Source of the DNA: Ostreococcus lucimarinus
Lineage: Eukaryota
DNA: 64,000 bases
Assembly (NCBI GenBank): GCA_000092065.1
Contig: CP000591.1
Direction: 5' to 3' (one strand)
In this document: piece by piece, positions 25,260 through 50,770 of the stretch
Layout: each line of letters opens with the position of its first letter
Numbering within the stretch: position 1 is the first letter of the stretch
Position numbers and translations under genes: made by a program
Notes under the pieces: model-generated
What the model was told of the DNA's origin: nothing
The model's input: the letters and a program-made list of their open reading frames with translations, nothing else
Databases searched by the model: none

Positions 25260-25308
25260 GGCCGCCGCGGTGCGCCGTCGTCGGCGGCGGCGTCGCGTCG
25301 GCGTCGCG

Positions 25309-27253: not shown

Positions 27254-27505
27254 TCGAGACGGCTCGGACAGCTTCCGTTAGAACACTAGCACGCCGACCC
27301 CGTTCGCCGAATCGCTCGTCATTTCTTCCTCGAGCGAGGTGGTGACTTTTAAAGTATACAATACAATATCACGACGGAACGAGCGCCGCGTCCCGAGCGG
27401 CGCTCGCCTCCCGAGCCGTCCGCGTCGCGCGTCGACGTTCCTCTAACACTAATCCACCATATTCACCGACGATCGTCGATCGTCACACACCGTCGCGCAC
27501 CCACG

Positions 27506-30169
27506 ATGGCGGTGCCGCCGGGAACGGGAAATCGACAGTTTGTCGATGACGCGCAGGTGCGTAAACGGACCGCACGCGCGCGCGTCGCGCGTTACGTGTC
27601 GCGCAAGCGTCGCGAATTCGTCACGCGATCGTCGAGACGCGATGAATCGTGCGCGCGGAACGCACCGTGTGGAAGCGCGAAGAAGGGGTTGAACGACCCG
27701 AATTCGCGTCTCGCGGGCGTGGTCGCGGGATGCGCGCTCGATGCGCGCGCGCGCGCCGTCTGAACGACGCGAAAGACGCGATGAAGACGCGTTCGCGCTC
27801 GACGAGCGCGAGAGCCAGAGGACTGACGCGACGCCGCGACGTTTTCCAACCCGTAGATCGCGGAGGAGCAGCGCGAGCTCGACACCAAGCTGCGATCGAC
27901 GAATACGCGGGATAAACTCGATGCGCTGAAGAGGCTGATCGCGCTCATGGCGACGGGACGAGACGTGAGCGTGTTTTTTCCCTCCGTCGTGGTGAACATC
28001 GTGAGCGAATCGTTCGAGGTGAAGGTGTTGGTGTACATGTTCTTGGTGCGAACGGCGGATCAGAAGCCCGAGGAGGCGCTTTTATCGATCAATTCGTTTC
28101 AGAAGGATCTGGCGCACCCGAACCCGAGAGTGCGGGCGTTAGCGCTTCGAGTGATGTCAAGCATTCGCATCCAGGTCATCGTGCCGGTGGTTATATTGGC
28201 GGCGCGAAAGTGCGCGGTTGATCCGAGTCCGTACGTGCGCAAATCGGCGGCGCATGCGATCCCAAAAATTTACAGAATGGATAACACGCGAAAGGAAGAG
28301 CTCATCGAAATCATCGAAACGATGTTGCGCGACAGTACGCCCTTTGTGTTGTCGTCCGCGGTGGCGGCGTTCACCGAGGTGTGCCCGGACAGGATCGATT
28401 TGTTGCATCGACACTACCGCAAGATTTGCCGCATGTTGGTAGACATGGACGAGTGGGGACAGATTTTGTTGAGCGAGCTCCTGCTCAGGTACGCGCGATC
28501 GCAGTTTTTGGCCCCCGACGCGCACACGCGCGAGCTCGGCGGCGTTTCGGGTAAAGGGGAAAAGAAGCTCGAACTCGCGCTTCCTTCGACAAACGAAGCC
28601 TCTTACCACGAATCCAACAACGCCGGGATCCAGTCGATCGTGGCGAGTGGCGCGGCGTTCTATTCCGATTCCGATGAGGAGGAGGAAGACTCCGACGATG
28701 ACAGCGACGATAGCGACGGAGGCAAGGCGAAGAAGGCGGGCAAGTCGAGCGGCGGCGCCACGGCTGAGTCTCGCGGTCCAGGTTGGATGGACGAAGACCA
28801 TCGTCTTTTGTTGCGTTGCACGCGTCCGTTACTGCAGTCTCAAAACGCTGGCGTCGTTATGGCTGTTGCGGCGCTGCACTTTTACCTGAGCCCAGCTGCG
28901 GACTTGCCCAAGGTTGTTCGAGCGTTGGTTTTCACAGCGCACGGCAGGCCCGAGGTGCGACATGTCGTCATCAAGAACATTTGTACCATGGTCACCACGC
29001 AGCCGATATTGTTCCAGTCGCACTTCAATGCGTTCTTCGTCACTCCACGAGATCCGTTGCAAGTCCGCGCTCTGAAACTCGAAATCTTGACGCACATCGT
29101 CACGAGCGAAAACGCGCCCACGCTGTTGAGAGAGCTTCAAGCTTACTTGCGCTCATCAAACCACGATTTTGTGGCGCTGACGATTCGAGCCATCGGAAGG
29201 TGCGCGGCCATAATGCCGCAAATCGCATCAGTGTGCATCCGCTCTTTGCTCGAACTTTCGCTTCATCCTTCGCCAAAGGTTGCGTCTGAAGCAGTCGTCG
29301 TCATTCGCGCCTTGGTGCAACAAAATCCGAAGGAGCACATCGTCGTGGTGATGCGCTTGATGCGTCGATTGGACTCATTGATCGCCCCCGAAGCGCGCTC
29401 AGCGGTGATTTGGCTCGCGGGTGGTGAGATCTTTGATGGCGACGCGGAGAACATCAAGGCGTCTGATAAGGAACTCCGTGAAAAGTTCTTTGAACTCGCA
29501 GTGCAAATGATGCGTCGCGTCGTCAAGAGCTTCCCAGATGAACACGAGATGACGAAGCAGCAAATCGTGAACACATCGTGCAAGATGTACATCCAAGATC
29601 CCATCCGCATCGCGCCAATGCTCAAAGTCGTATTTGCGCTCGCTGCTGCGGATCCTTCGGTGGACATGCGCGATCGAATTCGCGTCTTCCGCGCCCTCTT
29701 CCCCGTGGACGGGAAGCCGAGCGCGGTCAAGCACTTCGGAGACGCCGTCGTGCTGTGCGCCAAACCTGAGCCCAAACTCCCGTCACCCGCGATGCAAACG
29801 TGCGAGCACGCGCTCGGTTCTCTGTCGCATTTCATGGATCACATGGCGCCAGGGTACACGCCGCTCGCGAAGCATCCGACGGTGCAACCGCCGACGAATG
29901 TTCGCGAGCAATACTTCGCCGGGGGATCGGGCAGAGAAGGCTCCTCAGCCATTGCGGTGCACAACGGCAAATCCAACGGCCTCGGTGCGAGTGGATTCTA
30001 CAGCTCTAGCGATGACAGCGATGATAGCGACAGTGATTCGAGTAGTTACACGGGGAGCGACGATTCAGACGATAGCTCGGATGACTCTGGTGATTCCTCA
30101 GACGACGACGAAGACGAAGACGAAGACGACGAATCGGACGATTCCTCGTCGTCGAACGACTCGGATTAG
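27506..30169 (+). CDS. AP3B: AP-3 adaptor complex subunit beta, 2 exons
   Basis: Exon 1 at 27506-27556 (MAVPPGTGNRQFVDDAQ, donor GTGCGT). The intron runs to the AG at 27856. Exon 2 at 27857-30169 begins ...ELDTKLRSTNTRDKLDALKRLIALMATGRDVSVFFPSVV, which aligns with human AP3B1 [39 protein letters not shown] and runs through RALALRVMSSIR...EVCPDRIDLLHRHYRKICRMLVDMDEWGQ. The Ser/Asp-rich acidic C-terminus is typical of AP-3 beta. Confidence 0.8.
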
Positions 30170-30263
30170 CTACCAATGACGAAACAATGTAAAACAAATC
30201 GCGTGTCTATATTAAAGCTATTATTAAGCCGCTCGGTGAATGAATGAATGAATGAATGACGCG

Positions 30264-31094
30264 TCACACGTCGAAACCGTTTTCGCGCGCGCGTTTGAGA
30301 AACTCGAGTTGTTCGTCGGACCCCTCCTCGAGCGCTTGAAACATGAAGATTGATTTATCCCCGATATCGTCCTTGATCGGCTGCGAATACTTGCGCAACG
30401 CAAGAACGACTAGAAGTGCGAGCACGACGTTCGCCTCCACCCCGCACACGTCTGCGCTCGCGCCGAAAAGATGACTCAAACACATCGCCGGCACGGCGAA
30501 GAATAAAAGCGCCGCCTCCGGCTTACCGTAACACATCCCCTCCTTAAACGCCAGCCCTGTCAACGCGGCGAACATCGGACCGACGAGCAAAACGCTCATC
30601 GGATGTTCCCAGACGTACACCGGCAGCGGCTCCTGCGCGCTCATCGCGATCGCCGCGCTTCCCAAAAACCCCACCGACCAGAGCGCGCGCATCGCCGCGC
30701 GAATCTCGCCGACGTACATGTGCACCATCAGCAGCGCCCCCCCCAGCCCCAATCCGCCCAAGAAGTACGCTTTTTCCGCGTCCACGTAATCCCCGGCGTG
30801 ACACAACCCCGCGGTGAGCGCGGCGCCGAGCGACATCGCGCTCAACGACCCTCGATACGCGAACACCTCCGCGCGGTCCGCGGCGTCCACCGTCCAGTCT
30901 GCGTAGGCGCCGCGGTACACGCGCGGATCCACCGACTGTTCCGCCGCGAACCGCGGTCCCGCGCGAAGCGGTTTCAGAATATCGAACCTCGCGCGCGTTC
31001 GCACCGTCGCGCGCGCCCTCGCGCGCCCTCGTCGGCCCGTCGTCGGCGCCGAACGCGTCGCGATGACGTCCTCGATGCCTCGCGCGCCGACCAT
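30264..31094 (-). CDS. hypothetical integral membrane protein, possibly organelle-targeted
   Basis: 276 aa with an Arg-rich presequence and at least 4 hydrophobic, Gly-rich helices (LGGLGLGGALLMV, VLLVGPMFAALTGLAF, VVLALLVVLAL). No family recognised. Confidence 0.35.
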   Translation of the reverse strand: MVGARGIEDVIATRSAPTTGRRGRARARATVRTRARFDILKPLRAGPRFAAEQSVDPRVYRGAYADWTVDAADRAEVFAYRGSLSAMSLGAALTAGLCHAGDYVDAEKAYFLGGLGLGGALLMVHMYVGEIRAAMRALWSVGFLGSAAIAMSAQEPLPVYVWEHPMSVLLVGPMFAALTGLAFKEGMCYGKPEAALLFFAVPAMCLSHLFGASADVCGVEANVVLALLVVLALRKYSQPIKDDIGDKSIFMFQALEEGSDEQLEFLKRARENGFDV

Positions 31095-31330
31095 GTTTCC
31101 TCCCCTCGCGCTTCGCTCGCGCCGCCTCGGCGCCGCGCGTCCGCGCGTCCGCGCGTCCGCGCGTCTCTCCGCCTACCGCGCGCGCCTCGTCGCGATCGAG
31201 CGCCGCGACGCGTCGCGACGCGACGATTTGTGCCGCCGCGGTGCGCCGACGATCGGCGATCGGCCGCGGCGGCGCGCGACGATCGCGCGCACACCGCGAC
31301 GCACCGCGAGACGGACGCGAGGCGCGCGCG

Positions 31331-32146
31331 ATGGGTAAATGGATGGACGATGACGCGCCCGGTGGGCCGCAGGGCGCGCGCTCGTACGCCCCGTACGCGG
31401 GCGCGCAGGCGAACGATGCGTGTCGGAATTGCGGCCAGCTCGGACACTACGCGAGAAACTGCGCGCAGAACGCCGGACTGAACGGCGGCCGCGGCGCCGA
31501 TCGATGCAATCGATGCGGACAGATCGGACACTGGGCGAGCGAGTGCTCGCTGCCGTACTCGGGCGGCGCGGGCGCGGGAGGGTTCCGAGGGGCGGTCGGC
31601 GGCGGCGGCGCGCGGCCGGGCGATCGGTGCTCTAGGTGCGGAGGACTCGGACACTACGCGCGCGCGTGCCCGTCGCCGGCCATGGCGGCGTTCGCGGGAG
31701 GTGCGGGAGGCGCGCCGAAGACGTGCCATAACTGTGGACGCGTGGGACACATCGCGCGGGACTGCCGACAAGGCGGCGGCGCGCGAGGGTACGATAACGC
31801 CAGAGCGCCGAAGCAACGCAAGGGTGCGGGTCCGGACGATGTGTGTAATCGCTGCGGCGAAAAGGGACACTGGGCGAGCTCGTGCTCGCAACCGGACACG
31901 CGAACGGAGGCCGAGCGCACGAGACAAGCCAAGCCGGACGATAAGTGCCACCGATGCGGCGAGCTCGGGCACTTCGCCAAGGATTGCTCGTTGCCCCCGG
32001 ACAACACGTGCAGAATTTGCAAGCAAGAGGGACACTTCGCCAGAGAGTGCCCGAACAAGGACACCGCGGCGGCAGCGAACATGGATGCGGACCTTGATAA
32101 CTACATGAAGGAGGGCGCGGAGAAGAAGGAAAGCGGCGAGGCGTAA
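31331..32146 (+). CDS. CCHC zinc-knuckle protein (CNBP-like), 7 knuckles
   Basis: Seven CX2CX4HX4C repeats (CRNCGQLGHYARNC, CNRCGQIGHWASEC, CSRCGGLGHYARAC, CHNCGRVGHIARDC, CNRCGEKGHWASSC, CHRCGELGHFAKDC, CRICKQEGHFAREC). ATG at 31331 (MGKWMDD). Confidence 0.75.
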   Translation: MGKWMDDDAPGGPQGARSYAPYAGAQANDACRNCGQLGHYARNCAQNAGLNGGRGADRCNRCGQIGHWASECSLPYSGGAGAGGFRGAVGGGGARPGDRCSRCGGLGHYARACPSPAMAAFAGGAGGAPKTCHNCGRVGHIARDCRQGGGARGYDNARAPKQRKGAGPDDVCNRCGEKGHWASSCSQPDTRTEAERTRQAKPDDKCHRCGELGHFAKDCSLPPDNTCRICKQEGHFARECPNKDTAAAANMDADLDNYMKEGAEKKESGEA

Positions 32147-32395
32147 TATATCGAACGCGCGCTCCTCGCGACGCTTCTTCAATAAATCCGACGCCGCGGT
32201 CGTTCGCCGCGCCGTCTCCATCACCACGAACCAGACGACGATGAAACGACACGATTACGCGTCGAACTCATCGTCTCGTCCCGGCGCGTGTGTTTCACCA
32301 TCACATACCACGTAGTGTTGTCTTTGTAATGGCCTTCTAAAAATCAATCTCACAAACCCGTCTCGGAGCGCGCCACGACTCGCCTCTCCTGAATC

Positions 32396-34138
32396 ATGTC
32401 GAAAAAGTTCTTGAACGCCCCCGACGACGTCGTGAGCGAAATGCTCGACGGCGTGTGCCTCGCCACGCCCTCGATCGCGCGCATCGCCGATCAGAACGTG
32501 CTCGTGCACGTTCGCGAGGGCGAGGACAAGGTGGTTGTGATTTCAGGCGGCGGAAGCGGCCACGAACCAGCCATGGCGGGGTATCTCGGTCGAGGCATGC
32601 TCGACGCCGCGGTGTGTGGGAACGTCTACGCCAGCCCGAGCGTGGAGGCGGTGCTGAGCGCGATTCGCGCGACGACGACCGACGCGGGGGCGGCGCTCGT
32701 GGTGATGAACTACACCGGGGACAGATTAAACTTTGGATTGGCCGCCGAACGCGCGAAACTCGAAGGTTTCGACGTGGAGATGGTGATCGTGAATGACGAT
32801 TGCGCGCTGGCGAGCGATCGAGTCGGGATCGCCGGCAGGCGCGGGCTTGCGGGGACGCTCTTCGCGCATAAAGTCGCCGGCGCGGCGGCGGACGCCGGTA
32901 AGTCTCTGAAGGAAGTGTGCGCGGAAGCGAGGGCGTGCGTCGAGGCCACGGGGACGATGGGGGTAGCGTTACAAGCGTGCACGCTTCCGGGATCGTCTGG
33001 CGTCGCGAGAGAGATTGCGGAAGGGACGATGGAGCTCGGACTCGGGATTCACGGCGAACCGGGAGCGCACACGGCTAAGACGACGAGCGCCGATGAAGTC
33101 GTAGAGACGCTCATGACGAGTATTTTCGCGCAGAATGAAAAGATTGGGAAACTGAGCGAAGGTTCAAACGTAGCGCTCATGGTGAACTCGCTCGGGGCGA
33201 CACCGTTGATGGAGTTGTACGTCGCCGCCCGCGCCGCGTTCTCGTGGCTTGCGGGCGTGAAGAAAATAAACGTCACGCACGCATACGTCGGCACGTTCAT
33301 GAGTGCGATCGATATGAACGGTTTTAGCGTCACCGTATGTGCGCTCGATGATGACACTAGAGTGCAGCGCCTCGAGGCGCCGTGTTCATGCTCCGCGTGG
33401 CCGAAGACGGCAAAACTCACTCCTGCGAAGCTCTTGTCGGTGTCAGCGCCGGCTTCCGATAGAAACGAAACCATCGCGAGCGGGCCACCGACGACTCCCG
33501 AGGGTGTCATGGCGTTGAAAGCTATCAAGCGCGTCGCAAAGGATCTCATCGCAGTGGAGGATACTCTCACAAAGTACGACACCGCGGTCGGCGACGGCGA
33601 TTGCGGCACCACGATTCGCAAGGGCGCTGAGGCTTTAATGAAAGCTGCGGATACTTACCCGATTGACGATGTCTCGGCGCTTATGCGTGCTATCGGGGAC
33701 ACAATCCGTCAGAACATGGGCGGTACGAGCGGCGTATTGTACGATATCTTTTTCACCGCCGCGGCGGATAAACTCGCAAAGGTTGCCAAGGGCAAAGCGC
33801 CGAGCGTCGACATCGTCCTTCTTGCGTTCTCAACGGGCGTGCAGGCGATGTGCCAGTACGGTGGCGCTCGCGCTGGTGATCGCACGATGCTAGACGCGCT
33901 CGTTCCTGCGTTAACAATGGCGACGACGACGTATATGTCGAAAAAGTCTGTCATCGAAGTTGCGTCCGAAGCCGCAAAGGCGGCTGCGAACGGCGCCGAA
34001 GACACAAAGAGCATGAAGGCAAACGCCGGACGTTCAAGCTATGTCAACCAAGACGTGTTGAAGGAAACACCTGACCCCGGTGCAGTCGCGGCGGCGACGT
34101 GGATTAACGCAATCTTTGCTGCAGTGTCTGAAAGTTGA
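32396..34138 (+). CDS. DAK: dihydroxyacetone kinase / triokinase (Dak1 + Dak2 domains)
   Basis: KKFLNAPDDVVSEMLDG...KVVVISGGGSGHEPAMAGYLGRGMLDAAVCGNVYASPS (DhaK motif), followed by a C-terminal DhaL-like domain. Confidence 0.85.
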   Translation: MSKKFLNAPDDVVSEMLDGVCLATPSIARIADQNVLVHVREGEDKVVVISGGGSGHEPAMAGYLGRGMLDAAVCGNVYASPSVEAVLSAIRATTTDAGAALVVMNYTGDRLNFGLAAERAKLEGFDVEMVIVNDDCALASDRVGIAGRRGLAGTLFAHKVAGAAADAGKSLKEVCAEARACVEATGTMGVALQACTLPGSSGVAREIAEGTMELGLGIHGEPGAHTAKTTSADEVVETLMTSIFAQNEKIGKLSEGSNVALMVNSLGATPLMELYVAARAAFSWLAGVKKINVTHAYVGTFMSAIDMNGFSVTVCALDDDTRVQRLEAPCSCSAWPKTAKLTPAKLLSVSAPASDRNETIASGPPTTPEGVMALKAIKRVAKDLIAVEDTLTKYDTAVGDGDCGTTIRKGAEALMKAADTYPIDDVSALMRAIGDTIRQNMGGTSGVLYDIFFTAAADKLAKVAKGKAPSVDIVLLAFSTGVQAMCQYGGARAGDRTMLDALVPALTMATTTYMSKKSVIEVASEAAKAAANGAEDTKSMKANAGRSSYVNQDVLKETPDPGAVAAATWINAIFAAVSES

Positions 34139-34167
34139 TTTAATGCTACGTAATGCTATTTCTAAAG

Positions 34168-37100: not shown

Positions 37101-39006
37101 GTGAAATCATCAAGTTATCGCCGAAACTCGCGCTGGGGTCCTTCGACACGTGAATCCAAGGCGTCGGTGTGAACGACGTCGTCACCATGAGAAAGCCGAG
37201 CGAAGCAAAAACCATCGGAACGAGAGCGACTCGCAGGATTAACACGCGAAGTACGAACCCGACAGCTTTCACACGGTCTCTAAAGTCGCCCACGCGTTTC
37301 GAGTATGTCCTGCGCCTCAACGCGTACTCCGCCATGAGCTCCATTCTCTCAGCAGCTTCGCGAGGTATCAAGCGCAAATTGAGCGGCGAAGTCGTCTCCA
37401 AGCGCACGGTTCGGAGTATAGCTTCATCGCTACCGTTCTCCCACGCGACGTCGGGAACAACTTTGAAACGCTGTTTTTCGCGATCGCGCACTGGAGTGAA
37501 ATCATCTCGCATCGCAACTGGTTGAAGAAGAACACGTCGCATCGTCTTGCTCATCATCGCGTGCACTTTGGCCAACTTGTTCACTTGCACAGTCTCTTCG
37601 TCGACTTGCGCACCGCCACCTGATTCGGCGTCTGGGTCGTCCGAGTATTGCGTTAATGTTTTATCGCCGCCAAGCTCTACGTACTCCGCGAATGCCCACA
37701 TGCATTGATCAAAATGGTCTCGGACACGTCCACAAAACTTGACGACTACAGGGCAAATGACAACGCCGAACAAAAGCACGACGAACCAGTTCGTGAGCTC
37801 CGTCTTGGCACCACGCTCCGTCATATCCGGGCCGAATAAACCAGGGTAGAAGAACACGTCCGCTATCGCATCGCGATACATTTCGTTTGAATGACTCGAG
37901 CGGCGCCATGCAAACGCCGTAAATGCAAAGAACTCGATGTACAGCTGGAATCGAAGAAGATTGTGGCTCCAATACTCCTTGTCCAAGACCTTGGCCAACT
38001 TGTAACGAAACATTAGTGCAAACGTAGCGCTCCTTAGTCGCACGGTGTACTTCACCCACGCCATAAGTTTCGATGCGGTCGCGACAAGTTGCTCGCCAAC
38101 CATACTTCGACGCCGCTCGGCGCGCTCCGTTGCGTACAAATTCTTCTGAAACTGTTCCTCAGCTTCGTTCCACAGTCCCGCCTCTTTGGCCGCTCGTTCT
38201 CGCGCCGACTTTTTCTTGTCGACGAGTATATTTTTCAAATCTCGATCTAAATCAATCTTCGTGACGTACGTGATGTGCTCGCTCTTAATCTCCTGCGTCA
38301 ATTCATCCAGCTCTCGCTTGTACTCGTCATCCAACTCTGCGTCGGCTTCACCGCTCCCAATCATCTTATAAGACGCCCCGACGTCTAAAATAACGTTTCT
38401 CTTATCCTCGAAATCGGAAGATTCAAGATTTCGACCGAACGAGTACGCACAAAACGCGGCGAACGCGATGAACGCCGCCGCCACAGCGGTATTCGTCGAC
38501 GTCTCGCAAGTCCACGAAACCTCCACCTCGAGCGTCTGACTCGCGTAACAACCGTTCGTATCCACCAATGCTGCAGAATACTTCCCCTCGACGTCCGGTC
38601 GCAGCGTCGCCCGCGCGCTTCCATCGACGTCAAACGTCGCGTTCGCGAACGACGTCGCGTTCGTCAGCGCGCTCGTCGCCGGCCACGACATCAGCACCCA
38701 CCGCCGCGTCGCATCACTCGCGCTCTCGAACACGTAATCATCAAAGCATCGTTTCTTAGTCGCGTCCAGCGTCGTGGCGTCGTAGGGATCGCCACCGCGA
38801 CCGGCGATTTCGAGCGTCGTCGCCTTGGCGCCGTCGTCCGCGCGCGCCGTCACCGCCGCCATCGACGCGCTCGACACCGAGCACTGCGGCAGCGCGTCCA
38901 CCGCGCGCGCGAGCGCGAGCGCACCGATCACCGCGAGCGTCAACGCTCGCGCGGCGCCGTTCGCGCGCGCGCGCGTTCGCCGCGCGCCTCGTCGTCCCCG
39001 CGGCAT
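34168..39006 (-). CDS. large multipass membrane protein of unknown family, about 1,613 aa
   Basis: Start taken at MPRGRRG... with a signal peptide (ARALTLAVIGALALARAVDA). A cysteine-containing extracellular N-region is followed by roughly 10-11 hydrophobic helices and then about 800 aa of alpha-solenoid-like cytoplasmic sequence. GC is lower, about 50%. The first 303 aa of the track ORF overlap the LIG4 5-prime region and are run-through. Confidence 0.5.
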   Translation of the reverse strand: MPRGRRGARRTRARANGAARALTLAVIGALALARAVDALPQCSVSSASMAAVTARADDGAKATTLEIAGRGGDPYDATTLDATKKRCFDDYVFESASDATRRWVLMSWPATSALTNATSFANATFDVDGSARATLRPDVEGKYSAALVDTNGCYASQTLEVEVSWTCETSTNTAVAAAFIAFAAFCAYSFGRNLESSDFEDKRNVILDVGASYKMIGSGEADAELDDEYKRELDELTQEIKSEHITYVTKIDLDRDLKNILVDKKKSARERAAKEAGLWNEAEEQFQKNLYATERAERRRSMVGEQLVATASKLMAWVKYTVRLRSATFALMFRYKLAKVLDKEYWSHNLLRFQLYIEFFAFTAFAWRRSSHSNEMYRDAIADVFFYPGLFGPDMTERGAKTELTNWFVVLLFGVVICPVVVKFCGRVRDHFDQCMWAFAEYVELGGDKTLTQYSDDPDAESGGGAQVDEETVQVNKLAKVHAMMSKTMRRVLLQPVAMRDDFTPVRDREKQRFKVVPDVAWENGSDEAILRTVRLETTSPLNLRLIPREAAERMELMAEYALRRRTYSKRVGDFRDRVKAVGFVLRVLILRVALVPMVFASLGFLMVTTSFTPTPWIHVSKDPSASFGDNLMISLFVGLGAIAVSMKMAVVSETLEPNLRPVPIFEMLSIFLKVSLATIAAYMEGELPGHGVPALDSVARLESLNSLRNIMPVVVCLVLLVAHMNIQSLRGFGQKRNESRAGAFGGAFMFAVVTYFSRIFNNPPWMSHGLVPHTGGSNWTRPGVVIGIIMTLIAMVMVRVFNHSLGDHKCIRSELEKLSDPEQVEKVEKIMTPEFIKEQVEAENRRDRVVALVAFYNLLSTEQRTQLLSPLVKKTNMPRASQTKDGENEDVGDAWDTASDAFEELGIIMHCIIDDPDQEFLQVAGEGFIRSVIHAYVQGTVEIALWCDDDSPASTWEAVKSIVSTVKDCIKGGESKTFQATVATVSMECIQSFDFANLMSTLLFKAHDIDLDMYGEDYVVSARMFRQIIDDAFEIPPRPIAKKLTQAITHVRDPDTDEVRRLDKAERVTYVARSWLRQEVKAKNRPELNWFSSLGYYAAVGRLQNEADEERLELAHDFMKTLLDASLSTDKQISFYSIRTLATLVRVGDAGPSVFAVDGLKVLFECMEAHAGSSKETFVSEILYALTNADACRSEFLSALSHLIVSMEPGKEREKIHAIELLHQSIKLEMSAVYRVMNTKSDEGEVSKKSYKAFISMSAAQFVHDALYGMLIDDEAETRELSIHALVDLITLFVWGTEGNFYDFEVPVTGSYTDAAFERFVDAAKRKMPGGALMSKTMYRRLYGDIKVQGLQKDTDKLIAVLLKIVNTDDNAGVRAAAERGISDMRALLSDDSALTAITLYDESSDVRDVRGAAPSRETLHNVSAIIHSSVERQRQKDETISKLRLNEFWRKMKEREHSGNSHRQAKSTRGGRVEIERDSDPSKGPAPPIGGRMTMVKGTTGFKRVPDQATPKIVRHPPPPPPTERLERQRRARSALHADRLAKREAASDRWYGGENFRRQRSIESANNEASEVVVSSNIAALNERPTFTAPRYGTTKVPREFRRAPRPPE

Positions 39007-39319
39007 GGATTCGCTCGCCTCGGACGCGCGCGCGCGCGCCCGCGCGCTCGCGCGCCCGCGCGCGCCGCCCGCGCGCGCGGCGCCGAGCGATGACATCGCG
39101 CTACGCCTCGCGCATGCTCGCGAGACGACGGATCGCGGGCGACGCCGTGCGTCGCGGTTTACCGTCGCGCTGCAAACGGTCGATGACTCCGTCAGAACGC
39201 GACGACGACGAAGACGACGACGAAGACGACGAAGACGCGCGCGCGCGCGCGACGGAGGCGCGGCGAAACGCGCGTCGGCGTCGCGACGACTGCGCGGCGC
39301 GAACGCGCGCGTGACGGCG

Positions 39320-42304
39320 ATGGACGACGTTGCGAATGATTCCGGGCACCGTCTCGGAACGCGCGACGGCGGCGACGACGACGACGACGACGCGGAAGAG
39401 GACGGCGCGCGGTTGACGAGCGAACCTTCGACGTCGGGCGCGTCGCTGAGATACGCCACCGCGCGCGACGTGCCGTTTCGAAAGCTGTGCGGCGCGTTCG
39501 AGGCGTTGCAGAACGAACGCGGTCGGTCCAAGGCGACGAGCGCGCGGCGGTATCGAGTGCTCGATACACTGCACGATCGATGTCTCGTGAGCGCGCGCGA
39601 TGGAACCCGCGTCGACGCGTTCGACGCGTATCGGTTGATACTGCCGGCGTTGGACAAGGAACGAGGGGCGTATTTCTTGAAACACGACGCGTTGGCCAAG
39701 GTGGTGGTGTCGGCGTTCGACATGTCTCGAGCGAGCGAGGACGCGAAAAAGTTGGAGGATTGGAAACGAAAGGGTGGCGGTAACTTTCCGCAAGTTGTTC
39801 GAGACGTTTTGGCGGGTGGACATCTCGCGGATCGTGAGAAAGATGAAGACGCGCGCACGTTGACCATCGGAGACGTGAACGAGGCGTTGGACGCATTGGC
39901 GGCGTGCGATAACAAGGATCAGCGCGCGTCGACGCTGCGGGCGCTGTTTTCAAAGATGGATGCGACGCAAGTGAAATGGACGTGCGCAATCATATTAAAG
40001 GAAACAAAAATTTCAATGGGAGAGAAGGCGATATTGCGTCATTATCACTCCGAAGCGAATGACTTGTGGGATTGGACTAGCGATTTGCGAAGAGTTTGTG
40101 AAGACTTACCGCGGCGAGACTTCCGGATGAAGCGCGAGGACATCGATGTGGGCGTAGGTTTAATTAATCCTCAGATGGCGAGAAGGCAAAACAGCATCGA
40201 TGCCGTGTACCGCGCGTTGAAAGGTACGCAGTTTGTCATCGAAACCAAATTCGACGGCGAGCGCATTCAAATTCACAAAGACGGCGACATCATCAACTAC
40301 TGGACGAGAAACATGAACGATTTTGGCCCTCGTGGCTACGATGTGATGAATGCTCTCTTTCGTCATTTGCCAAAGCGATGCATTCTCGACGGCGAACTCA
40401 TGGTTTGGAACAAGCTTCGCGATCAGTCGTACCCGTTCGGCGCGTTGAAGAATCTCATCAAGGCTGCAAATATGCGCAAGGCCAAGGATGAATTGTTTCC
40501 ACTCAAGGCACACCTCGAAAACCGTGATGGTGGTGATAGCGACGGTGAGGAGGATCTCATGAGCTCCAAGTATGCGTGGTACGCCGAGAACGTAAAGAAA
40601 CTCACGTATGGAGACTTGGAATTGGTCTACGTTCCGTTTGATATATTGTATGCCGTCGATCGAAGTGTGAAGACTCATAAGCTGAGAGAGCGGCATGAAC
40701 TTTTGAAAGAGCATGTGCGTGAAGTATCAGTCATGTGTGGGAATATTCGTGCTAGAATTCTTCTCGCGACGCCCGATTGCGCGTTCTCACGTGTAGGCTC
40801 AACGAAGGAGGATATCGAGCGCGCGCTGTTAGAAGCGATGGATAACGGAGAGGAGGGATTGGTAATCAAAGATCTCGACGGTCCATGGATACCAGGTGAT
40901 CGTAGCAATAACTGGATGAAAATCAAACCAGACTACTTATCGAGTGAAGATTTGGACGTCGTTCTCATCGGCGGCTATTACGGCGCCGGTGAGTTGCGCG
41001 GGGGCAAAATTTCGCAGTTCCTCTGTGGCATTGTGGAGGCAACGAACGATCCGATTAGCACCGCTTCAGATGGAGTCAAAATCATGAGCTTTTGCAAGGT
41101 AGGTACTGGTATCAGCGCCATGCAGCTCGACGATTTGAGAAGTCGGCTAGGCGACTTCATGCACAGAGAAAAGCCTCAAGACATGAACTACAACGTCACG
41201 GATGCTTACAACGAAAAGCCGGACGTTTGGATCTGGCCTCCTCAGCGATCATTGGTTGTGACGGTGAAAGGTGACATTCGTGCGATTCGCACGACAACTT
41301 TCGCAACTGGTTACAGCCTGCGTTTCCCCCGCGTCACCGGTATTCGATATGACAAAAAATGGTCCGACATCTTGACACTCTGCGATCTCTTAAAGACGAT
41401 TGAAGAGGAAGTACCGACATTGAAAGTGAATATCGACGATACACGAGGCGGTACGAATGCCCGAAAGCGTTCGCGCACGACGGGACCCGCGACGCTACTA
41501 CCTGCACATCTCATGCCGGTTGACGTTTCGGGCGTCGTGCAGGAATCTGAAATCTTCAAAAACATGCAAGTGCACATCGCGAACTGTGAAAGTCGAGAAC
41601 AAAAGCAGGAGCTGTTCAAAGCTGTCATCGCACGTAGTGGTACTACGAGTGAGTTGTGGCACAAGCATGTGACGCACAGCGTTGCGTTGAACCGCGACGG
41701 CTCAAAGTTCAGGACGGCGAGTCGGGAAGGCGATGTGTACACGATTGCCTGGCTCCAAGAGTGCATTCACGAAGGACGTGTGGTACCGCCGAAACCTCGA
41801 CATCGCTTACATCTCTCAGCGACGACGTGGTATGGTACGGATGCCATGGATCGATACGGAGATGATCATTTCTCGGACTGCAATTTGGCCGACGTACACG
41901 CGCTCGTGCATCAAGTTGGCGATCAAACTAAGCGTTGGAAAACTGCCGAAGTTCCAGCATTGGTGGAGCTCGATCGCGAGTATCCATCGGTGTGTGCTGA
42001 TGTGAAACTTTTGACGTTTAGGGGTTGTGTGTTCGAGATTGACGATTCTCTCGGCAAAGATGCGCGTGTTGATGAGCAGAGTAGTATGTTTCCAAGTGTG
42101 CTGGCGGGCGAACGTCGAAACGTCGAACAGATTCTTCGGATTTATGGTGGAAAGCTCGCACCTGAAGGCAGAATGGGGACACATATTGTGCGCATGTACG
42201 ATGACTCCGTTGTCTTTGAAGATATGGATGATGGAAGAAAGCAAGTTTCGCTCTCTTGGGTGAAACGTTGCATCGACCGGTCGACAACGGCTGATGTAGT
42301 CTAA
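39320..42304 (+). CDS. LIG4: DNA ligase IV (ATP-dependent, NHEJ) with tandem C-terminal BRCT domains
   Basis: Adenylation motif ETKFDGERIQIHKDG, OB-fold region, and two BRCT-like modules (IFKNMQVHIANCESREQKQELFKAVIARSGT and LRIYGGKLAPEGRMGTHIV). ATG at 39320 (MDDVANDS). Confidence 0.85.
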   Translation: MDDVANDSGHRLGTRDGGDDDDDDAEEDGARLTSEPSTSGASLRYATARDVPFRKLCGAFEALQNERGRSKATSARRYRVLDTLHDRCLVSARDGTRVDAFDAYRLILPALDKERGAYFLKHDALAKVVVSAFDMSRASEDAKKLEDWKRKGGGNFPQVVRDVLAGGHLADREKDEDARTLTIGDVNEALDALAACDNKDQRASTLRALFSKMDATQVKWTCAIILKETKISMGEKAILRHYHSEANDLWDWTSDLRRVCEDLPRRDFRMKREDIDVGVGLINPQMARRQNSIDAVYRALKGTQFVIETKFDGERIQIHKDGDIINYWTRNMNDFGPRGYDVMNALFRHLPKRCILDGELMVWNKLRDQSYPFGALKNLIKAANMRKAKDELFPLKAHLENRDGGDSDGEEDLMSSKYAWYAENVKKLTYGDLELVYVPFDILYAVDRSVKTHKLRERHELLKEHVREVSVMCGNIRARILLATPDCAFSRVGSTKEDIERALLEAMDNGEEGLVIKDLDGPWIPGDRSNNWMKIKPDYLSSEDLDVVLIGGYYGAGELRGGKISQFLCGIVEATNDPISTASDGVKIMSFCKVGTGISAMQLDDLRSRLGDFMHREKPQDMNYNVTDAYNEKPDVWIWPPQRSLVVTVKGDIRAIRTTTFATGYSLRFPRVTGIRYDKKWSDILTLCDLLKTIEEEVPTLKVNIDDTRGGTNARKRSRTTGPATLLPAHLMPVDVSGVVQESEIFKNMQVHIANCESREQKQELFKAVIARSGTTSELWHKHVTHSVALNRDGSKFRTASREGDVYTIAWLQECIHEGRVVPPKPRHRLHLSATTWYGTDAMDRYGDDHFSDCNLADVHALVHQVGDQTKRWKTAEVPALVELDREYPSVCADVKLLTFRGCVFEIDDSLGKDARVDEQSSMFPSVLAGERRNVEQILRIYGGKLAPEGRMGTHIVRMYDDSVVFEDMDDGRKQVSLSWVKRCIDRSTTADVV

Positions 42305-42350
42305 ATTTAGCGGCTGGTGTTCGCGTCCCCTGAATGATTGACGCGATACG

Positions 42351-43688
42351 ATGCGCACGTCACAGGACTTGGCTCTTTTAGAACCATTTGTTCCGAAGGC
42401 GGCGAAATGGCTCTCGTCGCACGCAGCTGATGGATGTCTCTCCATTTCACGCCGCCGCGGGAGAGCCGCCTTGCTCTTTGTGGATATGAATGACTTTGTA
42501 AAAGTTAGTAATGGTGCGGTTCGCGAGCACGCATTGGCTGCCGCATCTTTCAACCACATTCGCCCGTCTATATACGGTAAACGGCGCAACCTCGAGGCCT
42601 CCGCTCGATGTGCAGCGTGCTTACGAGACGTGCTCGCTGAATACTTTTCTATACTCGCAGACATCGTGAGCGCGTACGACGGCGAGGTGTTGGCATTCAT
42701 AGGGGACGCCATGCTTGCTGCGTGGTTCGTACGCGGCGACATGGATGACGATGAAGAGATGCGGTGCGCCACAAAACGGGCTCGGCTCTGCGCGCAGGGC
42801 ATTCTCACGAATGTTCACGGGCGTGCCTTGAAAGAAATTGTCACCATCACGCTGAAAGCGATGATCTCTGCAGGCCCAGTCGTCGCCATTCCCACCAAGT
42901 TTCCCAATCATGCACGCGGTGTGGTGGTAATCGGTGACGCGTTTGATGACTTAAGAGCGATGAAGGGATTAATGCAATCGGGGAAGGTCGTTTTCAATGC
43001 GTTAAGTTGCGCACTCCTCGCATCGGGTGGAAACAGAGACACGGCGAGCGCAACGACATCGATTTTCACGACACTGCCACGCGCGCGTGTCAAGGAATTC
43101 ATCCCGTCGCACGTTTTCAACGCATTTGCAGATGGTTTGATCGGGTTCGACGATAAAACACCTTCCTTGAGCGAGGTGTGTACCGTCGCCTTTGTGCGAT
43201 TCAATCCCAAAGGAGACGACTGTGTAGTCGAATGCATCGGCGTCGTGCATCGCGTGGTTTCGCAATATCAGGGCGTTGTTTTGCAAAGTATCGTAGATGA
43301 CAACGGGCCTTCGTGCTTGTGCGCGTTCGGCGTTCCCGGAACCCCCAAGCGCGGCGCGACGACGAGAGGATTGCGATTCGCGCGAGATCTCTTGAAAACA
43401 CTAGACGGTGCGCTGACGCACGCGCGGTGTGGGTTGTCCACAGGCGTCGTGAACATAGGTGCCGCGTGTGAGGTGAACTCTAAGTCGCATTCCGAGTTCT
43501 CGCTCGTCGGTGTCCCAGTGATACTGGCCGCCCGACTAGCTGATGCGGTGAAACCTGGCGTCGCGGCGATGGATGAAGAGACGCGTGTTTGGGCGGCTTC
43601 AGCGCTCAACAATAATGCGCGTACGTCTCGCATTGAATTATGTTTAAAAGGTTTCCCGCGAGCGATGACAACGTTTATCATAGAGTAG
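42351..43688 (+). CDS. class III nucleotidyl cyclase with two tandem cyclase-homology domains (soluble adenylyl cyclase-like core)
   Basis: CHD1: AALLFVDMNDFVKVS...DGEVLAFIGDAMLAAW, with both metal-binding Asp positions present. CHD2: CTVAFVRFNPKG...GLSTGVVNIGAACEVNSKSHSEFSLVGVPVILAARLADAVKPG, lacking the Asp pair as in sAC C2. About 55% GC. Confidence 0.65.
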   Translation: MRTSQDLALLEPFVPKAAKWLSSHAADGCLSISRRRGRAALLFVDMNDFVKVSNGAVREHALAAASFNHIRPSIYGKRRNLEASARCAACLRDVLAEYFSILADIVSAYDGEVLAFIGDAMLAAWFVRGDMDDDEEMRCATKRARLCAQGILTNVHGRALKEIVTITLKAMISAGPVVAIPTKFPNHARGVVVIGDAFDDLRAMKGLMQSGKVVFNALSCALLASGGNRDTASATTSIFTTLPRARVKEFIPSHVFNAFADGLIGFDDKTPSLSEVCTVAFVRFNPKGDDCVVECIGVVHRVVSQYQGVVLQSIVDDNGPSCLCAFGVPGTPKRGATTRGLRFARDLLKTLDGALTHARCGLSTGVVNIGAACEVNSKSHSEFSLVGVPVILAARLADAVKPGVAAMDEETRVWAASALNNNARTSRIELCLKGFPRAMTTFIIE

Positions 43689-43708
43689 CTGCAACTAACT
43701 GATTCTTT

Positions 43709-45987: not shown

Positions 45988-46021
<34 letters not shown>

Positions 46022-46177
46022 CGCCATCGCGCGCGCGTTCGCCTCGCGCGCCGTCGTCGCGGCGTCCGCGATCGCGCCGTCGCGCGCGCCGCCGCGCGCG
46101 CCCTCGCGCATCACCATCGCGCACGCCGCGACGACGGCGACGCACGCGAGGCGGCGCGCGAGGCGGCCGCGACGCAT
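43709..46177 (-). CDS. nucleotide-diphospho-sugar transferase, GT77-like type II membrane glycosyltransferase
   Basis: Start taken at MRRGRLARRLACVAVVAAC (signal anchor). Ala/Asn/Thr-rich stem. Nucleotid_trans-like catalytic region with LSDADVVWMRDP (DxD) and a Cys-rich C-terminal domain. The track ORF upstream of about 46177 is Arg-rich run-through. Confidence 0.5.
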
Positions 46178-46603
46178 CGCGTCGCCTCGCGTCCCGCACT
46201 GACGCGCGCGGCACCGACGCGCCTCGCGTCGACGAGCGAGCGAGCGATGGACGCGGTGCGCGACGCGACGCGACGCGACGCGAGACGCGAGACGCGCGCG
46301 CGAGGCGACGCGACGCGCGCGACGAGAGAGGGCGACGCGCGCGCGAGGCGATGATGATTCGACGCCAACCGACGACGATCGGATCGGCGCGAGAACGGAC
46401 GCGCGAAGACGCGCGGCGCGAGGACGGACGCGCGCGACGACGCGACCGTGGACGCGCGAACGATCGACGCGCGCGGACGCGACGCGCGGCGACGGAGAAG
46501 AGGAAACGAAGACGATGAGACGATTGGAGCGATTGTTTGACTGACGGCGACGACGGCGCGGCGACGACGATTCGAATAGGCGATCGAAAAATGGTGCGCC
46601 GAG

Positions 46604-50765: not shown

Positions 50766-50770
50766 CGCGC

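What the first reader, a model, noticed from the sequence alone, without database searches (positions are those of the whole stretch)
27950..43700. Gene-by-gene GC mosaic: 47-55% GC genes embedded among 70-78% GC genes
By eye, the 3-prime half of LIG4 (40.1-42.3 kb) is about 47-53% GC. The big membrane protein, the sAC-like cyclase, AP-3 beta, DAK and the 10360 ORF are about 50-58%. UGM, PTOX, DJ-1, uL4, USP39 and the spacers are 70-78%, with near-exclusive G/C third positions. The switch happens at gene boundaries, not over long isochores. This fits expression-linked GC3 bias (gBGC or selection in highly expressed genes), or the window lying at the edge of a low-GC outlier region, as described for big-outlier chromosomes of Mamiellales. 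That could be relevant to mating-type or sex-related regions.
Basis: partly seen in the sequence, partly recalled or inferred. Interest (0 to 1): 0.5.

Follow-up and report, generated by a model that had tools for sequence, protein, structure and literature searches.

The report
Promoter-centred GC islands in Ostreococcus
The uneven GC content is real, but it is ordinary fine-scale base-composition structure of a standard Ostreococcus lucimarinus chromosome (GC-rich islands at gene starts, GC-poorer gene interiors), not the edge of a sex-related low-GC region.

Summary
Observation confirmed and sharpened. The window is Ostreococcus lucimarinus CCE9901, on a 593.5-kb record. Its size, 62% GC and conserved gene order argue against the low-GC outlier chromosomes. 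Across 35 gene models, GC runs 52.6-74.5% and GC3 56-92%, about four times the spread of a synonymous shuffle.

Two details are wrong. UGM, PTOX and USP39 are 62% GC overall, not 70-78%; only their GC3 is high. Most switches are not at gene boundaries.

Segmentation gives 15 GC-rich islands (68-83% GC, 0.2-2.6 kb). Each holds at least one gene start and is rich in CG simple repeats. They alternate with valleys that fall to 51-53%. One 6.1-kb valley spans LIG4, the cyclase-like gene and the glycosyltransferase body. GC3 falls 5' to 3' in 29 of 32 genes, on top of a gene-specific baseline.

The profile recurs in two other Ostreococcus-like lineages. One low-GC3 gene stays low at a different locus in O. 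tauri.

Likeliest cause: a regional GC-raising force focused near promoters, probably GC-biased gene conversion, plus expression-linked codon selection. Neither was measured here. Low interest: a known kind of pattern in a well-studied genome.

The parts
26251..30625 (.). GC valley (58.0% GC): porin exon, spacer, AP-3 beta body, and the convergent AP-3 beta | DUF2301 junction
   Evidence: Segmentation. Pfam Adaptin_N E=1e-108. AP-3 beta GC3 is 0.71.
30626..31925 (.). GC-rich island (72.5% GC). It is centred on the divergent DUF2301 | zf-CCHC spacer (31,095-31,330, 79.7% GC) and reaches into both coding regions.
   Evidence: CG-rich tandem repeats at 31,133-31,298. The peak is at the same place in L007 and L009.
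31926..34900 (.). GC valley (59.0% GC): zf-CCHC 3' part, DAK (32,396-34,138 +, GC3 0.71, falling from 0.85 to 0.59 along the gene), and the convergent DAK | big junction (29-bp spacer, 27.6% GC)
34901..38600 (-). Deepest GC valley (51.0% GC): body of the 1,643-aa signal-peptide protein 'big' (34,168-39,096 -). It has no Pfam match. Body GC3 is 0.60.
   Evidence: Orthologues in L007 and L009 have GC3 0.61 and 0.60.
38601..39550 (.). GC-rich island (72.6% GC). It covers the first 495 nt of 'big', the 223-bp divergent spacer (39,097-39,319, 72.6% GC) and the first 231 nt of LIG4. It contains a (CG)~30 run at 39,025-39,083.
   Evidence: CpG observed/expected is 1.96-1.99 here against 1.3-1.6 in the flanking valleys.
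39551..45625 (.). One continuous GC valley (53.4% GC) across three genes: the LIG4 body (CDS 39,320-42,304 +, GC3 0.595), the sAC-like cyclase (42,351-43,688 +, GC3 0.596, no 5' peak) and the 3' three-quarters of the Nucleotid_trans glycosyltransferase (43,709-46,177 -)
   Evidence: The same profile is seen in L007 and L009.
45626..46500 (.). GC-rich island (75.5% GC) over the glycosyltransferase 5' end and the divergent spacer to the ANP32-like LRR gene. It is dense in CG-rich repeats.
   Evidence: Metagenome contigs of this species all break here.
10360..11376 (+). orf10360, an isolated low-GC3 gene (GC 52.6%, GC3 0.56) between high-GC3 neighbours. The protein was found only in Ostreococcus and related marine metagenome sequences.
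   Evidence: The O. tauri orthologue (81% aa identity) lies in a different genomic context and has GC3 0.54.
55376..60325 (.). Second multi-gene GC valley (56.4% GC): beta-helix repeat protein (55,259-59,038 +, GC3 0.66) convergent with a DMC1-like recombinase (59,198-60,223 -, GC3 0.635)

Best explanation
This is the normal kilobase-scale base-composition landscape of a standard (non-outlier) chromosome of Ostreococcus lucimarinus. It has three layers.

(1) GC-rich, CpG-rich, simple-repeat-rich islands of 0.2-2.6 kb sit on gene starts, above all on divergent promoters. They spill 100-750 nt into the coding regions.

(2) From each island, GC declines 5'->3' at all three codon positions and in the adjacent non-coding DNA. 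Long genes and convergent 3'-3' junctions therefore become 51-56% GC valleys.

(3) Each gene also has its own GC3 baseline. It recurs in the other lineages compared, and in one tested case it moves with the gene.

Proposed mechanism (inferred, not shown). Mutation in these algae is AT-biased. A GC-raising process concentrated near promoters holds islands and 5' ends far above mutational equilibrium. The likeliest process is GC-biased gene conversion at recombination events that start in open promoter chromatin. Gene interiors far from promoters relax toward equilibrium. Weak translational selection for mostly G/C-ending codons in better-expressed genes adds the gene-specific baseline.
For: SHOWN HERE.
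- Every one of the 15 islands contains a gene start, and 26 of 35 starts lie in islands.
- Divergent spacers have a median GC of 73%, against 47% for convergent spacers (p = 1e-4).
- GC3 of the first 100 codons exceeds the rest in 29 of 32 genes, by 9.6 points on average (p = 7e-7). GC1 and GC2 fall in parallel.
- Spacer GC tracks the GC3 of the neighbouring 100 codons (rho = 0.66, p = 2e-5).
- GC12 co-varies with GC3 (r = 0.51).
- 14 of 18 amino-acid families shift to G/C-ending codons in high-GC3 genes. GGT halves from 0.27 to 0.12 (p = 2e-9). GGT is reported as weakly optimal in O. tauri, so this shift runs against the published expression axis (PMC3673656).
- Gene identity still explains 62% of the variance left after the distance model is fitted.
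- The 50-codon GC3 profile correlates with two other lineages at r = 0.68 and 0.77. Four-fold sites in the seven genes present in both loci are only 29-48% identical, against 25-33% expected from composition.
- orf10360 keeps GC3 0.54 in a different O. tauri locus.

FROM THE LITERATURE.
- Mutational equilibrium GC is 36.8% in O. tauri, against 59% observed (PMC5455958).
- The O. tauri site-frequency spectrum fits gBGC, and chromosome GC rises with recombination rate (PMC5498103).
- Chromosome size correlates negatively with GC in O. lucimarinus (PMC5635611).
- Codon bias rises weakly with expression (rho = -0.22; PMC3673656).
- Non-recombining mating-type genes have GC3 about 20 points lower (PMC8557840). 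That matches the size of the drop in the valleys here.
Against: - No recombination, expression or methylation data were examined for this window, so the driving force is inferred.
- Cys, Phe, Asn and Gln codons do not shift with GC3. A pure gBGC model does not predict this. For Gln it matches the published absence of an expression effect, which points to a tRNA or selection component.
- Distance from a gene's own start explains only 35% of the 50-codon-bin GC3 variance. Distance to the nearest divergent spacer explains 20%.
- Some long genes stay GC3-rich throughout (PolA subunit B 0.81-0.85; unk950 at least 0.72). PolEta, not expected to be highly expressed, has GC3 0.77.
- The 59 SNPs among nine metagenome haplotypes give no usable W->S versus S->W signal.
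- In O. tauri, GC correlates negatively with expression genome-wide (rho = -0.37; bioRxiv 10.1101/2025.04.21.649811). This is partly driven by the outlier regions.
- Gene starts were chosen by eye. Some large 'spacers' may hide unannotated genes or exons.
Confidence: 0.55

Rival explanations
1. Pure translational selection. GC3 differs among genes only because highly expressed genes are selected for G/C-ending optimal codons. Rarely used genes (LIG4, DMC1-like, cyclase-like, orf10360) drift toward AT.
For: - Codon bias rises with expression in O. tauri, and nearly all optimal codons end in G or C (PMC3673656).
- The low-GC3 set includes plausibly rarely expressed genes: a DMC1-like recombinase and LIG4.
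- Gln codon use does not change with GC3, as reported for expression.
- The low GC3 of orf10360 follows the gene to another locus.
Against: - Non-coding divergent spacers are the most GC-rich DNA in the window (61-82%), and spacer GC tracks neighbouring GC3.
- GC1, GC2 and amino-acid content shift too. GARP residues make up 42% of the first 100 residues against 31% of the rest.
- The 5'->3' decline within genes is not predicted.
- GGT, reported as weakly optimal, halves in the high-GC3 class. CCC, reported as non-optimal, does not fall.
- PolEta and PolA subunit B are GC3-rich.
- The published expression correlation is weak (rho = -0.22).
Confidence: 0.2
2. A methylation landscape like vertebrate CpG islands. 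Promoter-proximal DNA is unmethylated and keeps its CpGs. Gene bodies carry CG methylation, as described for Mamiellales, and lose CpG to TpG/CpA. That lowers GC most in long or heavily methylated genes.
For: - CpG observed/expected is 1.9-2.0 in islands against 1.3-1.6 in valleys.
- TpG/CpA observed/expected rises from about 0.5-0.75 to about 1.0-1.1 as GC3 falls (rho = -0.77).
- CpG methylation of about 22% is reported for standard regions of O. lucimarinus CCE9901 (bioRxiv 10.1101/2025.04.21.649811).
- Islands are packed with CGCGCG: 28 per kb against 4.5 per kb in valleys.
Against: - CpG is over-represented everywhere, even in the deepest valley (observed/expected at least 1.27). There is no net CpG depletion of the vertebrate kind.
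- G/C-ending codons that create no CpG within the codon also rise (GTG 0.38 to 0.55, GGG 0.15 to 0.31, GAC 0.48 to 0.73).
- No nucleosome-scale periodicity in CpG or GC was detectable.
- Methylation was not examined at this locus.
Confidence: 0.15
3. The window borders or belongs to a low-GC outlier region (BOC1 mating-type region or SOC). Or the low-GC genes are foreign DNA acquired by horizontal or viral transfer.
For: - Valley GC (51-53%) equals the 53% reported for the O. lucimarinus small outlier chromosome.
- The GC3 drop of about 20 points matches that reported for mating-type genes.
- Several low-GC proteins have no Pfam match ('big', cyclase-like, orf10360).
Against: - The record is 593,542 bp. 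Chromosome 18 is 149 kb, and the mating-type locus is on chromosome 2.
- A 593.5-kb record is below the mean chromosome size of 629 kb (13.2 Mb over 21 chromosomes).
- Window GC is 62% and both ends are GC-rich.
- Valleys are 1-6 kb long and interleaved with 72-79% GC islands.
- Gene order is conserved in two other lineages with the same GC profile.
- The low-GC genes include core eukaryotic LIG4, DMC1-like, AP-3 beta and DAK.
- orf10360 is conserved across Ostreococcus at 65-99% identity.
Confidence: 0.03

Closest known systems
5'->3' GC gradients and wide GC3 spread among genes in GC-rich plant genomes (rice and other grasses), attributed largely to GC-biased gene conversion (PMC4684703; PMC13473671)
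   Same: GC declines steeply from the 5' end of genes. [quoted passage not shown] GC3 varies widely among genes, and short genes are GC-richer than long ones (Spearman length vs GC3 = -0.56).
   Different: The genes here are almost intron-free, so the intron 'barrier' structure described in rice does not apply. The genome is 30 times more compact, so one island usually serves two divergent genes. Body GC3 here is a continuum with a low tail (0.51-0.89), not clearly bimodal.
Low-GC outlier regions of Mamiellales (BOC1 candidate mating-type region; SOC)
   Same: The GC and GC3 levels reached are similar: about 51-53% GC, with GC3 about 20 points below the background. The explanation usually proposed, reduced gBGC, is the same kind as proposed here for the valleys.
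   Different: Outlier regions run for hundreds of kb, are intron- and/or TE-rich, are non-collinear between species, and lie on chromosomes 2 and 18. The valleys here are 1-6 kb, collinear, largely intron-free, and on a 593.5-kb standard chromosome.
Vertebrate CpG-island promoters
   Same: Short CpG-rich, GC-rich islands centred on promoters, often bidirectional ones, that extend into the first part of the transcribed region.
   Different: The surrounding DNA is not CpG-depleted (observed/expected 1.3-1.6). The islands are partly coding and 20% simple tandem repeat. Their methylation status is untested.
Expression-linked codon usage bias in Ostreococcus tauri (Michely et al. 2013, PMC3673656)
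   Same: The main axis of codon variation is GC3. G/C-ending codons dominate in the biased genes. Gln shows no shift.
   Different: The contrast here also involves non-coding DNA and codon positions 1 and 2. It moves GGT in the opposite direction to the reported expression effect.

Membership tests
Mamiellales big outlier chromosome low-GC region (BOC1, candidate mating-type locus) | Lies on the big outlier chromosome (chromosome 2 in O. lucimarinus) | tested here: not met
   LIG4 and UGM of the window belong to O. lucimarinus CCE9901 proteins on a 593,542-bp record. That is below the mean chromosome size of 629 kb (13.2 Mb over 21 chromosomes). The chromosome number itself was not read from a record title. 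The exclusion rests on size and assumes chromosomes are numbered by decreasing size, which is my own knowledge.
Mamiellales big outlier chromosome low-GC region (BOC1, candidate mating-type locus) | Continuous GC deficit of about 10-15 points over hundreds of kb | tested here: not met
   Window mean is 62.0% against a genome mean of 60%. The low-GC segments are 0.2-6.7 kb long and alternate with 68-83% GC islands.
Mamiellales big outlier chromosome low-GC region (BOC1, candidate mating-type locus) | Loss of collinearity between species, and many small introns | tested here: not met
   The gene order AP-3 beta, DUF2301, zf-CCHC, DAK, big, LIG4, cyclase, GT is kept in L007 and L009. Long uninterrupted ORFs run up to 1,643 codons.
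Mamiellales small outlier chromosome (SOC) | Whole small chromosome (149 kb, 53% GC in O. lucimarinus) with many lineage-specific genes | tested here: not met
   The record is 593,542 bp, against 149 kb (PMC3491373). Most genes have Pfam families and orthologues.
Codon bias from translational selection (expression-linked) | Bias correlates with expression level | not testable with these tools
   No expression data could be queried. RNA-seq for CCE9901 exists.
Codon bias from translational selection (expression-linked) | The effect is confined to synonymous sites of coding DNA | tested here: not met
   Spacer GC co-varies with adjacent GC3 (rho = 0.66). GC1, GC2 and amino-acid content shift too.
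Codon bias from translational selection (expression-linked) | Codon shifts follow the published optimal-codon set (GGT up, CCC down, Gln unchanged) | tested here: inconclusive
   GGT goes down (0.27 to 0.12, p = 2e-9). CCC goes up but not significantly. Gln is unchanged. The published effects for GGT and CCC are themselves weak and come from O. tauri.
GC-biased gene conversion landscape with promoter-proximal recombination | All site classes, coding and non-coding, shift together toward GC | tested here: met
GC-biased gene conversion landscape with promoter-proximal recombination | The W->S shift is independent of codon identity | tested here: inconclusive
   14 of 18 amino-acid families shift by +0.12 to +0.25. 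Cys, Phe, Asn and Gln do not.
GC-biased gene conversion landscape with promoter-proximal recombination | GC correlates with local recombination rate, and W->S alleles segregate at higher frequency | tested here: inconclusive
   Only 59 variable sites were found among nine metagenome haplotypes, with no outgroup close enough to polarise them. Recombination maps cannot be obtained with these tools.
CpG-island promoters | A CpG-rich island against a CpG-depleted, methylated background | tested here: not met
   Island CpG observed/expected is 1.9-2.0, but the background is 1.3-1.6, which is still over-represented. Methylation was not tested.
Horizontally acquired or viral DNA island | Atypical composition together with patchy or absent orthologues in close relatives | tested here: not met
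   Orthologues occupy the same order and have the same GC3 in two other lineages. orf10360 is conserved across Ostreococcus.

The most novel reading that the evidence does not exclude
In Ostreococcus, and perhaps Mamiellales generally, GC-raising recombination or conversion may be confined to a few hundred bases around promoters. The interiors of long genes on ordinary chromosomes would then be as free of gBGC as the non-recombining mating-type region, and would reach the same GC3 of about 0.5-0.6. The resulting kilobase-scale GC map has stayed stable across the Ostreococcus-like lineages compared here, whose four-fold sites are largely randomised. If so, raw GC3 profiles could serve as a fossil, base-pair-resolution map of promoter hotspots in organisms whose sex has never been observed. 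The CG-repeat islands would mark the hotspot cores.
Probability: 0.3. Interest if true: 0.5.

Novelty: new member of a known kind. Interest (0 to 1): 0.22.

Why it matters
Mostly as a correction. A low-GC gene in a Mamiellales genome is not in itself evidence of an outlier chromosome, a mating-type region or foreign DNA. Ordinary chromosomes contain valleys of 1-6 kb at 51-53% GC.

Such scans should compare GC3 after removing the first ~100 codons and should take gene length and orientation into account.

If the promoter-hotspot reading is right, the conserved GC3 profile would give an indirect map of recombination initiation in algae whose sexual cycle has never been seen. The pattern is otherwise a familiar kind, in a genome published in 2007.

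Tried and rejected
(1) Nucleosome-scale periodicity of GC or CpG. I looked for a sequence trace of linker methylation. There was only a weak, inconsistent excess at 170-210 bp, and no null model supported it, so I dropped it.

(2) A polymorphism test for gBGC. Nine near-identical metagenome contigs gave 59 variable sites. In the LIG4-to-GT valley my hand count was about 11 W->S against 9 S->W. The sites are unpolarised and the test has no power.

(3) Distance to a promoter as the sole explanation. It accounts for only 20-35% of bin variance, and a large gene effect remains.

(4) HGT or orphan status for orf10360. Rejected, because the protein is conserved across Ostreococcus.

(5) Reading Palenik 2007 and Huff & Zilberman 2014. 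Neither is held in the library. Chromosome 2 size, the numbering of chromosomes by size, and the statement that Mamiellales gene bodies carry CG methylation therefore rest partly on my own knowledge. One search confirms only that bisulfite and MNase data for CCE9901 exist, together with the overall methylation levels.

(6) Literature searches for a prior description of promoter-centred GC islands or intragenic GC gradients in Ostreococcus found nothing specific. This does not prove that none exists.

(7) The exact-match look-up of the cyclase-like protein and of LIG4 returned only metagenome contigs, not the NCBI chromosome record. The chromosome number was therefore not read directly.

Full report
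**Identity of the window.** The window is gene-dense and almost intron-free, with 62.0% GC. Its DNA ligase IV (39,320-42,304 +) is 100% identical over 994 residues to XP_001420309.1 of Ostreococcus lucimarinus CCE9901. That protein and the UGM protein of the window (XP_001420469.1) both come from a record 593,542 bp long. O. lucimarinus has 21 chromosomes totalling 13.2 Mb at 60% GC. Its small outlier, chromosome 18, is 149 kb at 53% GC (PMC3491373). Its candidate mating-type region is on chromosome 2 (PMC8557840). A 593.5-kb record is below the mean chromosome size of 629 kb, so it is a mid-sized standard chromosome. I could not read the chromosome number itself.

**Gene models.** I defined 35 gene models from ORFs, frame-specific GC3 and Pfam. 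In and around the finding they are:
- AP-3 beta (Adaptin_N)
- DUF2301
- a zf-CCHC protein
- DAK
- a 1,643-aa signal-peptide protein with no Pfam match ('big')
- LIG4
- a 445-aa protein with no Pfam match that hits human soluble adenylyl cyclase ADCY10 at E = 1.4e-11
- a Nucleotid_trans glycosyltransferase

UGM, PTOX (Pfam AOX), DJ-1, uL4 and USP39 (UCH plus zf-UBP) all have matching Pfam hits. Start codons were chosen by eye. For AP-3 beta, the porin and the DMC1-like gene, the 5' exon is missing from the ORF.

- Per-gene GC runs from 52.6% to 74.5%, and GC3 from 0.56 to 0.92.
- Shuffling synonymous codons among genes gives an SD of per-gene GC3 of 0.024 (maximum 0.034 in 500 shuffles). The observed SD is 0.094.
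- Body GC3 is heterogeneous among genes: chi2 = 646, df 34.
- In the finding's interval, 500-bp windows span 48.0-75.2% GC, with 10.7 times binomial variance.

Two details are wrong.
- UGM, PTOX and USP39 are 62% GC overall, not 70-78%. Only their third positions are GC-rich (0.80-0.85).
- 'Spacers 70-78%' is true only of divergent 5'-5' spacers (median 73%, range 61-82%). Convergent 3'-3' spacers are AT-rich (median 47%, down to 28%; Mann-Whitney p = 1e-4). Tandem spacers are intermediate.

**Anatomy.** A likelihood segmentation splits the window into two kinds of segment.
- 15 GC-rich islands: 68-83% GC, 0.2-2.6 kb, mean 72.5%, together 28% of the window.
- 16 valleys: mean 58.0% GC. The deepest are 34,901-38,600 (51.0%) and 39,551-45,625 (53.4%).

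Every island contains at least one gene start, and 26 of 35 starts lie in an island. The nine starts outside islands either follow another gene in tandem or are among the three starts that are undefined.

Of 30 breakpoints, 18 lie inside a coding region within 750 nt after the start codon, and only 8 lie in spacers. The switches are therefore tied to gene 5' ends but are not at gene boundaries. The 6.1-kb valley at 39,551-45,625 runs without a break through the LIG4 body, the whole cyclase-like gene and three-quarters of the glycosyltransferase. Low-GC3 genes are neighbours more often than chance allows (lag-1 r = 0.33, p = 0.015).

The islands are not just GC-rich.
- 20% of their bases are tandem repeats of CG-rich units, such as (CG)n, (CGA)n/(CGT)n and GCGACG. 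The figure for valleys is 1.7%.
- CGCGCG occurs 28 times per kb in islands against 4.5 per kb in valleys.
- CpG observed/expected is 1.9-2.0 in islands against 1.3-1.6 in valleys.

**Gradient and baseline.** GC3 of the first 100 codons exceeds the rest in 29 of 32 genes, by 9.6 points on average (p = 7e-7). Pooled GC3 falls from 0.88 (codons 1-50) to 0.74 (codons 200-300) and 0.59 (beyond codon 900). GC1 and GC2 fall in parallel. N-termini are enriched in Gly, Ala, Arg and Pro: 42% against 31% in the rest.

Distance is not the whole story. Distance from a gene's own start explains 35% of the variance among 50-codon bins. Gene identity explains 58%. Gene identity still explains 62% of the variance left after the distance model is fitted.
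- Well below expectation: LIG4, orf10360, 'big', the cyclase-like gene and the DMC1-like gene.
- Above expectation: the 950-aa protein, PolA subunit B, USP39, the S26 peptidase and uL4.

**Is the force translational or regional?** Evidence for a regional, non-translational force:
- The most GC-rich DNA is non-coding, namely the divergent spacers.
- Spacer GC tracks the GC3 of the adjacent 100 codons. Overall rho = 0.66 (p = 2e-5). Within convergent spacers alone rho = 0.63.
- GC12 co-varies with GC3 across genes (r = 0.51, slope 0.26).
- Comparing high-GC3 with low-GC3 gene bodies, 14 of 18 amino-acid families shift toward G/C-ending codons by 12-25 points.
- GGT halves (0.27 to 0.12, p = 2e-9) and CCC does not fall. 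In O. tauri, GGT is reported to rise and CCC to fall with expression (PMC3673656).

Evidence for a codon-specific component:
- Cys, Phe, Asn and Gln do not shift at all.
- For Gln this matches the reported absence of any expression effect.

I therefore read the pattern as a regional GC pressure plus a weaker codon-selection layer.

**Conservation.** Two syntenic loci from marine metagenomes carry the same gene order: L007 (LIG4 70-72% identical) and L009 (67% identical). They show almost the same per-gene GC3.

| Gene | Window | L007 | L009 |
|---|---|---|---|
| big | 0.61 | 0.61 | 0.60 |
| LIG4 | 0.60 | 0.62 | 0.62 |
| cyclase-like | 0.60 | 0.54 | 0.57 |
| DAK | 0.71 | 0.70 | 0.70 |
| DUF2301 | 0.79 | 0.81 | 0.86 |

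Their GC peaks lie at the same divergent promoters. GC3 in aligned 50-codon bins correlates at r = 0.68 and 0.77. Within-gene residuals after codon 100 still correlate (r = 0.34 and 0.50). Four-fold sites under identical amino acids, in the seven genes present in both loci, are only 29-48% identical, against 25-33% expected from composition. The landscape is therefore maintained rather than merely inherited.

One natural experiment addresses gene against place. orf10360 has GC3 0.56 and sits between neighbours at 0.82-0.88. Its O. tauri orthologue is 81% identical and lies near the end of contig CAID01000009.2, among different genes. There it has GC3 0.54, the lowest of its intact neighbours, which range from 0.60 to 0.72.

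**Mechanism.** Published work shows the following.
- Mutation in these algae is AT-biased. Equilibrium GC is 36.8% in O. tauri against 59% observed (PMC5455958).
- The O. tauri frequency spectrum fits gBGC, and chromosome GC rises with recombination rate (PMC5498103).
- GC falls with chromosome size in O. lucimarinus (PMC5635611).
- Non-recombining mating-type genes have GC3 about 20 points lower (PMC8557840).
- Codon bias rises weakly with expression (rho = -0.22; PMC3673656).

The valleys here reach the GC of the outlier chromosomes (51-53% against 53-54%), and their GC3 drop is of the same size. The most economical account is a GC-raising process concentrated near promoters, most likely gBGC at recombination events that start in open promoter chromatin. 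It would decay over a few hundred bases to about 1 kb. Gene interiors far from promoters relax toward mutational equilibrium. Expression-linked codon selection would add a gene-specific offset. This is inference. No recombination, methylation or expression data were examined for this locus.

A methylation-based rival is compatible with the CpG-to-TpG signature (rho = -0.77 between GC3 and TpG/CpA observed/expected). It proposes unmethylated promoter islands and methylated gene bodies. It fits poorly with CpG being over-represented everywhere, and with the rise of G/C-ending codons that create no CpG within the codon.

**The outlier and mating-type idea.** Not supported. The evidence against it is:
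- the size of the record
- a window GC above the genome mean
- GC-rich flanks at both ends of the window
- kb-scale alternation of islands and valleys
- collinearity with other lineages
- lack of introns

All of these run against BOC1 or SOC. The window does hold a DMC1-like recombinase (best PDB matches are DMC1, E = 1e-101, against RAD51 at 4e-96) and LIG4 among its low-GC3 genes. That fits 'rarely expressed genes have weak bias' as well as anything sex-specific does.

**Comparison and novelty.** The closest described pattern is the steep 5'->3' GC gradient and wide GC3 spread of GC-rich plant genomes (PMC4684703). It appears here in an intron-poor, extremely compact genome where one island usually serves two divergent genes. 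I found no paper describing promoter-centred GC islands or intragenic gradients in Ostreococcus, but the search is limited. The phenomenon is a known kind in a genome published in 2007. Its practical value is as a warning against reading kb-scale low GC in Mamiellales as a sign of outlier or foreign DNA.

Noticed in passing
window 39025-39083: A run of about 30 alternating CG dinucleotides (79% matches) inside the 5' coding end of the 'big' gene, next to the divergent spacer shared with LIG4. Alternating CG of this length can form Z-DNA.
   Followed up: no
window 47964-48289 and 25305-25559: Two longer non-coding tandem repeats in promoter-side spacers. One is 122 bp x 2.7 copies upstream of the uL4 start; the first 2.2 copies (47,964-48,226) are 99% matched, and the full array is 89% matched. 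The other is 82 bp x 3.1 copies (94% matches) between DJ-1 and the porin gene.
   Followed up: no
window 50692-50766 (+): A tRNA-Val(CAC) gene sits in the divergent spacer between the cytochrome b5 reductase gene and the next gene. It accounts for a 200-bp, 45% GC segment inside an otherwise GC-rich promoter region.
   Followed up: partly
window 45800-46120; L001 6439-14326: All nine near-identical metagenome contigs end, or stop matching the window, within about 320 bp in the CG-repeat island at the 5' end of the glycosyltransferase gene. L001 continues with about 7.9 kb that matches nothing in the window (aminotransferase, fibrillin and TPK genes). This is either an assembly chimera at the repeat or a structural variant.
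   Followed up: partly
window 9468-12700; L016 7796-9901; L018 2666-3661: The orf10360 neighbourhood is rearranged between lineages. In L016 a CA_like gene occupies this position and the TLDc gene is inverted relative to UGM. In O. tauri the orf10360 orthologue lies about 3 kb from the end of the chromosome 9 contig. The flanking spacers (892 and 1,324 bp) are unusually long for this genome.
   Followed up: partly
whole window: CpG is strongly over-represented everywhere (observed/expected 1.3-2.0). NCG codons dominate: in GC3-rich genes, GCG is 75% of Ala, ACG 77% of Thr and CCG 69% of Pro. Gln prefers CAA (56-60%) despite the GC-rich genome.
   Followed up: partly
window 42351-43688 (+): The 445-aa protein has no Pfam hit at E<0.001. 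It does match human soluble adenylyl cyclase ADCY10 in two stretches (E = 1.4e-11) and cyanobacterial class III cyclases weakly. The protein is only 45-47% identical between Ostreococcus lineages.
   Followed up: partly
window 56996-57348 (+): A 36-bp unit is repeated 9.8 times (95% matches). It encodes the repeat YPANSNGYPAKG in the 1,259-aa beta-helix protein, followed by a proline-rich stretch. This looks like a cell-surface repeat protein.
   Followed up: no
window 27857, 26249, 60223: The AP-3 beta, porin and DMC1-like ORFs begin without an ATG, while their Pfam matches start at the ORF edge. Short 5' exons and introns are therefore likely upstream. Their starts, and the adjacent 'spacers', are not well defined.
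   Followed up: no
window 29310-46121 vs L002-L013: Environmental haplotypes of this species from several marine metagenomes differ from the window by only 0-0.45% in alignment identity, and 59 sites are variable among the contigs compared, over up to 16.6 kb. Nucleotide diversity at this locus is very low.
   Followed up: partly
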